A program made the translations under genes and the position numbers. From NCBI RefSeq assembly GCF_018350175.1, contig NC_058381.1, forward strand, positions 2,480,001 to 2,544,000: DNA of 64,000 bases, given 5' to 3'. Shown here piece after piece: positions 27,395 to 31,392 of the stretch. The stretch comes from Felis catus (lineage: Eukaryota). Each line of letters opens with the position of its first letter. Position 1 is the stretch's first letter. The notes below the pieces were generated by a model. The model worked only from the letters and a program-made list of their open reading frames with translations, did not search any database and was not told the DNA's origin.

Positions 27395-27598
27395 TTTCTT
27401 TCTTTTTTTAAAATTTATTTGTGATGTTTGTTTATTTTTGAGGCGGGGGAGGAGCAGAGAAAGGGATACAAAGGATCCCAAACAACCCGTGGCTGACAGC
27501 AGAGAGCCCCAGGTGGGGCTGGAACTCACCAATGGTGAGATCAGGACCTGAGCCGAAGTCGGACGCTTAACCCACCGAGCCACCCACCCAGGCGCCCC
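27395..27598 (-). mobile_element. CanSINE upstream of SHBG
   Basis: Reverse-oriented SINE body ending ...ccaggcgcccc. Confidence 0.85.
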
Positions 27599-27779
27599 TC
27601 CGCTGTTGTTCTGATGGAGGATGCTGCTTGGGGTGCAGGGCAGGACTGCGTCTGGACCTCGGGCCTGGGGAGGCAGCCTCCTCAGGTGGGCAAAAGACTT
27701 CGGGGACCCAGGTCAGGCTCTAGAGGAGGAGAGGGGAAAATGGGGTATCTGTCCTGGCTCCTACACTTTCCCAGCAGGG

Positions 27780-27974
27780 GGAACATAAGTGGACAAGCTC
27801 CGTCCCTCCCCCGATTTGTCCACAGAGGGGGCGGAGGGTGAGTGCCCAGTCTCCTGCCCCCCTTCTTTCCACCCCGCCCCTGCCCAGGGACAACCTTTAA
27901 CCCAACACCAACTGCCTGTCCCCAACACATTGTCCCCAGGGTGATCTGAGCCACAGAGAGGACCGCGGCCGATT
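27780..27974 (+). promoter_or_regulatory. SHBG: SHBG proximal promoter (TATA-less; HNF4/DR1-like ACAACCTTTAACCC at 27890-27903)
   Basis: Position upstream of the ATG; motif resembles the human FP1 element as I recall it. Confidence 0.6.
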
Positions 27975-30900
27975 ATGGAGAGCAGAGGCCCACTGGCCGC
28001 ATCGCCGGGGCTGCTGCTGCTGCTGCTGCTGCTGCCGCTGCCACCTCACGGCCACCAGGTAAGGGCCCTGAGACAGTCTCTCTACCCAGGTGCAGGATTA
28101 GGACAAGGTGCTCAGCCCGTGTGTGCGTAGAAACGAGCTACCCTTCGGCTCTGCCCTCTTCCTTCCTCTCCTCTTCGTGCGGTAGCCTGTGTCTCTCCTG
28201 CCGTCGTCGCTGGGTCTCTGGCGTGTCTTCCTACCTTGTTTATTTTCTCTCTCTGATAGAGGATCCAGGACCCTCCTGCTGTGCACCTCAGCAGTGGCTC
28301 AGGACAAGAGCCTATCACCATCATGACCTTTGACTTCACCAAGATCAGGAAGTATGAGGTTGACATAGCCCCTTGACCTGGTCCCCTGACCCTACCTTCT
28401 GTGCCTCGGGTCTTCACTTTTCCCTGCTTCCCTCTCCGCCGCTTCACCATCCCTGACCCCGCTTTTGTCCCCACAGGCCATGCCCCACGCACCATCTTTC
28501 CTTCTGTGTCCTTCCAGAACCTCTTCCTCCTTTGAGCTTCGAACCTGGGATCCAGAGGGAGTGATTTTTTATGGCGATACCAACCCCCAGAAGGACTGGT
28601 TTGTGCTGGGGCTTCGAGATGGCAGGCCCGAGATCCAAATGCGCAACCACTTGGCCCAGCTTACGGTGGGCGCCGGGCCCCGGCTGGACGATGGGAAGTG
28701 GCACCAGGTGAGCCAGGCCCGGGCCTGCGCTGGCCTGCGGAAGGGGAACAGAACCGGGTCTCCGGGCAACCCCTTACCACCGTCGTCTTATTTGACCCGC
28801 AACGAAACCGCTATGGAGTTGCGATTCTTGTCTCCCATTTTTTCAGAGGGGAATCTGAGGCTCAGGTCCTGAGCGAGCCCAGGATGCTAGCTGCCTCCAC
28901 AAGTCCGTGTTCTTTCTGCTATACTTGGCTGCCTCTGCAGAAGGCGGTGGAGGCAGGCCCCAGGGGCCTCTGATTCAGCTTTGCTTCGCCCCGTCCGGCA
29001 GGTGGAAGTGAAGGTCCTCGGGGATTCGCTGCTGCTGAGTGTGGATGGGGAGGAGGTGCTGCGCCTGAGACAGGTCTCTGGGCCTCTGGCCGGCAAAGTC
29101 CAGCCTGTCGTGAGGATTGCACTGGGGGGACTGTTGTTCCCTGTCTCCAGTCTCCGTTTGCCGGTAACCGACAGCACAAGGGTGGGAACCCACCCCAGGT
29201 GGTAAAGTGTTGCTGCCCGGGGGACCACGGGGGTCTAAGTCCACACTCTTAAAGGAGAGGGGACAGCATGCTAGCCGCGTGGGAGAGGCCAAAGGCTTGT
29301 GTCTCAGAGGAGAATAAACTGAGCGTGGAGAGGCTGGGACAGGGGTTCACGTGTCTTGATTGCCACATCCCCACATCTTCCCTTCCCTGCACCGGCTCCA
29401 GCTCGTCCCCACCCTGGATGGCTGTCTGCGCCGGGAAAATTGGCTGGACCAACAGGCCCAGACCTCGGTGTCTGCCCTGACCAGCAGCCTCAGAAGCTGC
29501 GCTGCAGAGTCCCAGCCTGGCACATTCTTCCCTCCGGGGACTCGAGCAGAATTCAGTCTCCAAGGTAAAGGCGGTTTTTCCCTCCATGGCCGGCCCTGTG
29601 TCTGCCTTCCCCTGTCTCCTTCCACCACTAGTTTGCCTCCTTCCTTGAGTCCCCAGCCTTGAGTCCTCAGAAAGGGTCACCCATCCCCCCACCCCAGACA
29701 TCCCCCAGCCTCATGCAGAGCCCTGGGCCTTCTCTCTGGACGTGGGACTCCAGCTGGCAGCAGGTTCTGGCCACCTCCTTGCCCTTGGGACCCCAGAAAA
29801 CCCTCCTTGGCTCAGCCTCCAGCTCCAAGATCAAGTAAGAGGGGGTGTTGCCTGTATTCAGTGGAGCCTGGGAGTGGCAGGGGGAAAGGGGGACCCCAAA
29901 CTGTCAATATTAGGAAAGCTTAAGGTGGACGGTAGGGACATATCTTGACACGGACCAGGGGCGCCTGGGTGGCTCTGGCGGTTGAGCGTCCGGCTTCAGC
30001 TCAGGTCATGATCTCACGGTCCGTGAGTTCGAGCCCCGCGTCGGGCTCTGTGCTGACAGCTCGGAGCCCGGAGCCTGCTTCGAATTCTGGGTCTCCCTCT
30101 CTCTCTGCTCCTCCCCTGCTCATGCTCTGTCTCTGTCTCTCTCTGTCTCTCAAAAATAAATATTAAAAAGAAAAGAAAAGAAAAGAAAACTGCCCACAGC
30201 AAGCAAATGGCGTTTATTTATTTATATTTGTTATTTATTTATTTATTTTTATAATTTTATTATTTATTTTGGAAAGAGAGAGCATGTGCATGTGCTAGCA
30301 GGGGAGAGGAGCCAAGAGGGGGAGAGAGAGAATCCTGAGCAGGCTCCATGCTCAGTGAGGAACCCACCGTGGGGCTCGATCCCACGATCCTGGGATCGTG
30401 ACCTGAGCCAAAATCAAGAGTCGGATGCTCAATGGATTCAGCCTCCCCAGGCGCCCCAAGATTTTATTTTTAAGTAATCTCTACACCCAACGTGGGGCTT
30501 GAACTTATAACCCCAAGATCAAGAGTCACATGCTCTACCGAGTGAGCCAGCCAGGTGCCCCTACAAATGGCTTTTATCTGGATCGCATTTACTTGGGATC
30601 GGTGTGGTTTTATGGAACATCAAGCCAGGAAGATTGGGGCAGCACGTAGGGGGCGGAAATGGTTGGCAGACAGAAGGTACCGCTCAGAGGCCCGACTGAG
30701 GCAGCAAGGGGTGTGGGCCACAGGGGTCCAGGCGGTTTGTTCTTTCCTCCCCCGGTCACGTCCCTGTCCCACACACTCCGCAGAAAGTGGTGCTGTCCTC
30801 TGCGTCGGGCCCACAGCTGGATCTGCCTCTGGTCTCGGGACCCCCTCTTCAGCTGAAGCTGGGCGAGTCTGGGGTAGTCTTGAGCCAGAGGCCTAAGAAG

Positions 30901-31392
30901 GAGATCCTTGCCCTGCCTCTCTTGGATCCTGCCTCCCTCCTCAACCTCTGGGTCCAGCCACAGGGGCGCCTCTTCCTGGGGGCTCTGCCAGGTAAGAGCG
31001 ATGTTCACGCTCCTCAGCACGCCGTTGGAATCAGCTAGAGGGAGAGGAGGAGAAGACAGGCAAGGCCATGTTTTTAGGGAAAGGAAACTTCTGGGAGCCT
31101 AGAAGAAGAGGCCACAAGAAGAGAGCGGATAAAGGACCAGTGAGAGGAAGTGCTTTAGAAAATTTAGGTCAGAGAGCTGGGGTGGGGAGGAGCTTTGTGG
31201 GTCCAAGCTGCCCTCATGACCCCTCTGTGTCCCCTCCCTCTAGGAGAGGCTTCTTCGGCCTCCTTTTGCTTGGATGGCCTTTGGGCACAAGGCCAGAAGT
31301 TGGACATGGACCGGGCCCTGAGCAGAAGTCAGGACATCTGGACTCACAGCTGTCCCCAGAGCCTAGGCAATGACACGGACAGCACCCATTAA
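27975..31392 (+). CDS. SHBG: Sex hormone-binding globulin / androgen-binding protein (two laminin-G domains), about 394 aa, 8 exons
   Basis: Exons 27975-28058 ([13 protein letters not shown]8PLPPHGHQ; see finding on donor choice), 28260-28351, 28518-28707 ([22 protein letters not shown]), 29002-29163, 29402-29564, 29698-29834, 30784-30991, 31244-31392 (...[17 protein letters not shown]). Total 1185 nt in frame. Confidence 0.93.
28011..28034 (+). repeat. (CTG)8 poly-Leu tract in the SHBG signal peptide
   Basis: Eight consecutive CTG codons. Confidence 0.9.
29958..30562. mobile_element. Three CanSINEs in SHBG intron 6 (+ 29958-30190; - ~30215-30456; - ~30460-30562)
   Basis: SINE heads and tails in opposite orientations. 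Confidence 0.88.

What the first reader, a model, noticed from the sequence alone, without database searches (positions are those of the whole stretch)
28050..28100. SHBG exon 1 donor shift: a strong upstream donor bypasses a frameshift and deletes the usual signal-cleavage and O-glycosylation segment
Seen: exon 2 (28260) needs phase 0. The donor at the human-like position (ACCCAG|GTGCAG after 28089) gives a 115-nt exon, which is out of frame. A near-consensus donor CAG|GTAAGG after 28058 gives 84 nt, in frame: [36 protein letters not shown]. The 31 nt between the donors still resemble the human GWA/LRPVLPTQ codons (33 nt as recalled) with a 2-nt loss. Inference: a new donor arose and the released exon end decayed. 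The protein would lose the Ala-Leu signal peptidase site and the Thr7 O-glycosylation site. If the old donor is used instead, SHBG is a pseudogene or NMD target.
Basis: partly seen in the sequence, partly recalled or inferred. Interest (0 to 1): 0.7.

Follow-up and report, generated by a model that had tools for sequence, protein, structure and literature searches.

The report
Cat-lineage SHBG splice donor shift
In this cat gene for the blood sex-hormone carrier SHBG, the first coding exon ends 11 codons early at a newer splice site, as database proteins of cats, hyenas and meerkat also show; the protein stays intact and likely still secreted, lacking only a short tail and one sugar site, so this is an ordinary, already annotated change.

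Summary
Observation confirmed. ATG 27975 to donor 28058 is 84 nt (in frame with exon 2 at 28260); to 28089 it is 115 nt, with a stop at codon 63. A contig of an RNA-type run carries the 28058-28260 join; no 28089 join was seen. The 394-aa product equals the RefSeq cat protein. All 21 of 21 feliform entries with an exon-1 start (16 species: cats, hyenas, meerkat) lack the 11 residues; 0 of 28 caniform entries have that short join. The 31 nt are a real exon relic: 8 of 10 codons match dog, the best of 126,632 windows. So not a pseudogene. The Thr7 site is lost, but mustelids and whales lack it too. The human Ala-Leu cleavage site is lost, yet bear SHBG is cut right after GHQ (PMC8804615), which the cat keeps, so secretion likely survives. 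The 2-nt loss itself was not covered by reads. A splice-site shift is a known kind of event. The scan's notes hold no SHBG finding, only a comparable camel DNMT3L shift. Low interest.

The parts
27620..27685 (+). 3' part of an upstream non-coding exon (5' end not mapped), donor CAG|GTGGGC, spliced to 27940
   Evidence: joint skipping 254 nt with GT..AG ends in 2 of 2 RNA-type contig runs, 0 of 1 DNA-type run; ends checked
27975..28058 (+). SHBG exon 1 coding part, 84 nt, 28 codons: signal peptide with an 8-Leu run, ending G-H-Q
28059..28066 (+). newer, strong splice donor (CAG|GTAAGG), 8 of 11 matches to the donor consensus
   Evidence: used in run X3 contig
28059..28089 (+). 31-nt relic of the ancestral 33-nt exon end, now intronic; 2-nt loss near 28075-28077; Thr7-equivalent codon at 28084-28086
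   Evidence: 8 of 10 codons match dog; top of 126,632 windows
28090..28097 (+). ancestral weak donor (CAG|GTGCAG), 5 of 11 matches to consensus; now out of frame
28260..28351 (+). exon 2 (phase 0 start, R-I-Q-D-P-P-A-V)
28518..28707 (+). exon 3
   Evidence: exon 2-3 join seen as loose ends in X3 and X4
29002..29163 (+). exon 4
29402..29564 (+). exon 5
29698..29834 (+). exon 6
30784..30991 (+). exon 7
31244..31392 (+). exon 8 coding part to TAA; keeps the C-terminal N-glycosylation sequon (N-D-T)

Best explanation
Cat SHBG exon 1 is spliced at a strong donor after 28058, giving an intact 394-aa precursor 11 residues shorter at the signal/mature boundary than dog or bear; the donor likely arose by one G-to-T change in a feliform ancestor, and the protein is predicted to be cleaved after Gln28 and secreted without the Thr7 O-glycan. 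Shown: the join in an RNA-type contig, the open frame, the relic. Inferred: the ancestral Gly codon (GGN) after Gln became GTA, creating CAG|GTAAGG, which outcompeted the weak ancestral CAG|GTGCAG 33 nt downstream; because 33 is a multiple of three the frame held; the released codons then drifted and lost 2 nt, which makes any use of the old donor end in a stop at codon 63 (predicted NMD) and so locks the change in. The mature chain would start at Arg29, eight residues short of the human mature chain and outside the crystallised steroid-binding domain.
For: Run X3 contig (138 nt, depth 36.5) lies on 28258-28351 and its loose 5' end equals window 28027-28056; unspliced contig over 28078-28276 has depth 6.2; no 28089 join listed in any of 4 runs. 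Spliced frame is identical to P0134, RefSeq cat X1. 21 of 21 feliform entries with an exon-1 start (16 named species in 3 families) have no residues between H-Q and R-I-Q-D; of 28 caniform entries 23 have 11, two have 13 and 17, two have 2, one not parsed, none 0. Hyenid entries include GenBank deposits and Swiss-Prot SHBG_CROCR. Donor match 8/11 against 5/11. Bear SHBG made in insect cells is cut at 26|27 and 27|28, i.e. after G-H-Q (PMC8804615 section 7). The same paper says hyenid SHBG yield in CHO cells rises with a longer Leu run (passage), so hyenid SHBG, which has the same join, is produced. Human T7N is listed as 'Produced/Loss of O-glycosylation' (PMC5064763 Table 2 passage). PDB chains 1d2s and 1kdk match the cat protein only from residue 33 and 32 on. 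One copy of the region in the genome.
Against: The join is seen in 1 of 2 RNA-type contig runs (X4 had no contig across either join; X24 laid 0 reads); X3 is RNA by guess; contigs show presence, not absence or level, so minor use of the old donor is not excluded. Most feliform proteins are automatic gene models and may lean on each other. No hyena, meerkat or other felid DNA was seen, so the shared GT, a single origin and the order donor-then-deletion are inferred; viverrids, euplerids and Nandinia were not found. No signal-peptide predictor was run; the cat has Arg, not Gly, after Gln28, and the bear's second site (27|28) is gone. Bear has Pro after its human-like Ala, which may be why it is cut early (own knowledge).
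Confidence: 0.88

Rival explanations
1. The old donor after 28089 is mainly used, so cat SHBG is a pseudogene or NMD target.
For: The old donor is still intact and would give a stop at codon 63, 880 nt before the last junction. NMD would deplete such transcripts, so their absence is weak evidence.
Against: In-frame join seen; 394-aa open frame with all eight exons intact; Ser42, Asp65, Phe67, Asn82, Asp50, Glu52, four Cys and the Asn367 sequon kept; same join in 16 species.
Confidence: 0.02
2. The 2-nt loss is an assembly error; the interval is 33 nt and both donors could give in-frame products.
For: No independent read covered 28059-28077.
Against: No homopolymer at the site; no feliform entry carries the 11-residue form (0 of 21). 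Even if true, the short join is the one seen.
Confidence: 0.04
3. Frameshift first: the 2-nt loss broke the gene and the new donor was selected as a rescue (the 'bypass' of the title).
For: The present sequence alone cannot order the two events.
Against: It needs a null stage; donor-first needs none because 33 nt keep the frame (inference). The short join spans three families, while the indel is known only from this genome.
Confidence: 0.05
4. The short exon is used but the signal is cleaved poorly, so felid SHBG is partly retained or low in plasma.
For: Pro-rich c-region; no Ala at -1 or -3; Leu run as short as 4-6 in jaguarundi, lynx, puma and Geoffroy's cat; bear SHBG with a similar signal is secreted less well than human from insect cells (PMC8804615 passage).
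Against: In that paper swapping the bear signal for the human one did not raise secretion; hyenid SHBG with the same join is produced (passages citing a paper I could not read).
Confidence: 0.12

Closest known systems
RefSeq Felis catus SHBG isoform X1 (XP_003996230.2 and three more; P0134)
   Same: Identical 394-aa protein, same exon 1-2 join.
   Different: None in sequence; the record as seen says nothing on the relic or its origin.
Hyenid SHBG (Swiss-Prot SHBG_CROCR A0EQL2; GenBank ABB89081, ABC17851, ABC17852, ACV49771; Hammond et al. 2012, PMID 22253421)
   Same: H-Q joined directly to R-I-Q-D, no Thr7 segment.
   Different: Leu run 7-11 instead of 8. The paper was not held; I saw only citing passages, so it may already describe the short exon.
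Evolutionary splice-site shift into an exon (Kim and Hahn 2012, PMC3538075; CESAR, PMC4914097; passages only)
   Same: New donor near the old one shortens the exon in frame; e.g. NUB1 loses 14 residues; 360 such exons were collected in mouse, rat, cow and dog.
   Different: 33 nt is longer than the usual 3-6 nt; here the old donor is not mutated but made useless by a frameshift in the released bases.
Ursine SHBG (PMC8804615, passages and section 7)
   Same: Same P-x-x-G-H-Q signal end; cleavage shown after Gln26.
   Different: Bear keeps the 11 residues and Thr10, plus an N-G-S sequon that the cat lacks (S-S-G-S).

Membership tests
SHBG (functional orthologue) | Open frame over eight exons with two laminin G-like domains | tested here: met
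   394 aa, canonical GT-AG ends; Pfam PF02210/PF00054 on homologues; E 1e-103 to human SHBG structures
SHBG (functional orthologue) | Steroid-binding, calcium and disulfide residues (list from PMC8804615 Table 1) | tested here: met
   Ser42, Asp65, Phe67, Asn82, Asp50, Glu52, His83, four Cys, Asn367-x-Thr kept; Met107 and Met139 are Val, His136 is Gln, Ala160 is Thr, Asn351 is Ser
SHBG (functional orthologue) | Cleaved signal peptide and secretion | not testable with these tools
   Hydrophobic core present; site inferred from bear; no predictor run
SHBG (functional orthologue) | O-glycosylated Thr7 (feature of human and bear, not universal) | tested here: not met
   Absent in cat, hyena, meerkat; Thr in 53 of 82 parsed non-feliform entries, Ala in 8 mustelid and Arg in 5 whale entries
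Splice-site shift into an exon | New site used in transcripts | tested here: met
   one RNA-type run
Splice-site shift into an exon | Released bases still present and homologous to the ancestral exon | tested here: met
Splice-site shift into an exon | Outgroups use the old site and lack the new one | tested here: inconclusive
   Outgroup proteins keep the 11 residues with Gly or Glu where the cat reads Val; no outgroup DNA seen
Pseudogene | Disabling change in the used reading frame | tested here: not met

The most novel reading that the evidence does not exclude
A single donor-creating mutation in the feliform ancestor rebuilt the SHBG N-terminus (new cleavage point, no O-glycan), was locked in by a frameshift in the released codons, and left secretion dependent on a CTG-encoded Leu run that now varies from 4 to 11 across cats and hyenas, tuning free sex-steroid levels lineage by lineage as proposed for the spotted hyena.
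Probability: 0.15. Interest if true: 0.5.

Novelty: new member of a known kind. Interest (0 to 1): 0.22.

Why it matters
Modest. It explains why feliform SHBG precursors are about 11 residues shorter, gives a clean example of a splice-donor shift made irreversible by a later frameshift, offers a possible feliform marker, and warns that human-guided annotation would wrongly call the gene broken. It predicts the mature N-terminus (Arg29) for felid SHBG assays. No effect on steroid binding is expected, since the lost residues lie outside the solved domain.

Tried and rejected
Rescue of the 115-nt exon by nearby acceptors: none in frame. Second gene copy: 1 match in the genome. Raw-read junction counts: run X24 laid 0 reads (about 2 in 100 of the run read), no test. 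DNA check of the 2-nt loss: the X16 contig stopped at 27999; metagenome pattern scan 0 matches. Search for viverrid or other feliform N-termini: 24 hits, only puma was new. Hammond 2012 and Hammond 2011 were not held. Six paper searches on SHBG (listings, plus passages of PMC8804615, PMC5064763, PMC4890500) gave no description of a feliform exon 1 donor shift; subscription papers are outside that library and no supplements were opened (Fig. S3 of PMC8804615 holds the bear cleavage spectra). Only 4 of the 24 listed runs were laid, and only on 27620-28470. A first uORF calculation used an acceptor one base off and was replaced.

Full report
Observation. The window holds an eight-exon SHBG gene on the + strand, once in the genome. 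From ATG 27975 the donor CAG|GTAAGG after 28058 gives 84 nt, and CAG|GTGCAG after 28089 gives 115 nt; exon 2 begins at 28260 in phase 0. Joined at 28058 the exons give 394 aa, identical to P0134, named RefSeq Felis catus SHBG X1; joined at 28089 they give 62 aa and a stop in exon 2 at CDS base 187, with the last junction at 1067.

Which donor is used. Four of 24 listed runs were laid on 27620-28470. In X3 (RNA by guess) a 138-nt contig of depth 36.5 lies on 28258-28351 and its loose 5' end equals window 28027-28056; with the shared AG this is the 28058-28260 join. A contig of depth 6.2 runs unspliced over 28078-28276. No 28089-28260 join was listed in any of the four runs. X4 had no contig across either join, X24 laid no read, and the DNA-type X16 contig stopped at 27999. 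So the short join is shown in one run; its share is not measured, and the bases at 28059-28077 were not covered, so the 2-nt loss rests on this assembly alone.

The relic. Left-anchored the 31 nt read V-R-A-L-R-Q, right-anchored L-S-T-Q. Dog has G-L-A-L-R-Q-G-L-S-T-Q here, mink and otter G-R-A-L-R-H-G-L-S-A-Q, bear G-R-A-P-R-H-G-L-S-T-Q. With one broken codon allowed, the best score is 8 of 10 (dog); human scores 6. Among 126,632 31-mers of the window, 1 scored 8 and 4 scored 7. The first codon reads Val (GTA) where most outgroup proteins have Gly, which fits one G-to-T change that made the GT (inference from proteins; no outgroup DNA seen). The new donor matches an 11-base consensus (recalled) at 8 places, the old one at 5.

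Distribution. Of 42 stored entries from feliform clusters, 21 have an exon-1 start and all 21 join H-Q to R-I-Q-D; the other 21 start later and were dropped. The 21 come from 11 felid species, 4 hyenids and meerkat. Of 28 caniform entries, 23 have 11 residues there, two have 13 and 17, two mustelid isoforms have 2, one was not parsed, none has 0 (names; only 15 of 27 members of the largest felid cluster were listed). Most are automatic models, but the hyenid set includes GenBank deposits and a Swiss-Prot entry. The simplest reading is one event before cats, hyenas and mongooses split; viverrids and Nandinia are untested.

Mechanism. Shown: strong donor, in-frame join, relic. Inferred: the new donor outcompeted a weak one 33 nt downstream, removing 11 codons without a frameshift; the freed bases then lost 2 nt, so that return to the old donor now gives a predicted NMD substrate. 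Frameshift-first rescue needs a null stage and is less likely, but the order is not shown.

Consequences. The Thr7-equivalent codon (28084-28086) is intronic, so that O-glycan is lost. This is not unique: Thr stands there in 53 of 82 parsed non-feliform entries, Ala in 8 mustelid and Arg in 5 whale entries (some other letters come from odd isoforms), and human T7N is listed as produced with loss of O-glycosylation (PMC5064763, Table 2 passage). The human-type Ala-Leu cleavage site is lost, but recombinant bear SHBG is cut between residues 26 and 27 and between 27 and 28, directly after G-H-Q (PMC8804615, section 7); the cat exon ends on that G-H-Q, so cleavage after Gln28 is likely. Against this, the cat has Arg next, the second bear site is gone, and no predictor was run. 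Hyenid SHBG, with the same join, is produced according to passages citing Hammond et al. 2012; I could not read that paper. The key steroid-, calcium- and disulfide residues are kept, with Met107, Met139, His136, Ala160 and Asn351 changed, the first three positions and Asn351 also differing from human in bear. PDB chains 1d2s and 1kdk match from cat residue 33 and 32, beyond the lost segment.

Comparison. It works like, and meets two of three tested marks of, an evolutionary splice-site shift into an exon (the third, outgroup DNA, is inconclusive). Such shifts are well known: 56 of 85 human-specific sites in PMC3538075, 360 exons in PMC4914097 (passages). The protein product is already annotated. 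Six searches of the open library showed no description of this shift, but the most relevant paper was not available. The scan's earlier notes contain no SHBG finding; a camel DNMT3L donor shift is a similar kind of case, not checked here.

Verdict. Real, correctly observed, shared across the feliform proteins seen, and most likely harmless to function. New member of a known kind; interest 0.22.

Noticed in passing
window 28012-28035 (CTG run in exon 1); proteins P0124, P0005, P0170, P0126, P0003, P0134, P0054, P0146: The signal-peptide Leu run varies: jaguarundi 4, lynx 5, puma and Geoffroy's cat 6, Panthera and leopard cat 7, cat and fishing cat 8, spotted hyena 7-8, other hyenids 11. Leu-run length is reported to affect hyenid SHBG yield (PMC8804615 passage), so some felids may have low SHBG.
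   Followed up: partly
window 27620-27685 joined to 27940: An upstream non-coding exon splices into exon 1, 35 nt before the ATG, in both RNA-type contig runs. If the transcript starts before 27614, an out-of-frame 85-codon upstream ORF overlaps the main start and a 24-codon one ends 25 nt before it, which could damp translation.
   Followed up: partly
window 28352-28358: A minor donor 7 nt past exon 2 is used in run X3 (depth 8 against 22); it shifts the frame and supplies the ATG of the 337-aa RefSeq isoform X2 start M-R-T-S-S-S.
   Followed up: partly
proteins P0091 (sea otter X1) and P0096 (mink X2): Two mustelid isoforms drop 9 of the same 11 residues (G-H-Q-G-R then R-I-Q-D), hinting at an independent alternative donor in the same stretch; no DNA seen.
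   Followed up: no
proteins P0122-P0124 (jaguarundi), P0147-P0148 and P0007 (lynx), P0170 (puma): SHBG models of these cats have odd lengths (423, 335, 319, 341 aa) or diverge after exon 2, which may be assembly errors or damage to the gene in these lineages.
   Followed up: no
window about 27400-27600 and 29960-30560: SINE-like repeats by eye, one just upstream of or overlapping the non-coding exon; not tested.
   Followed up: no
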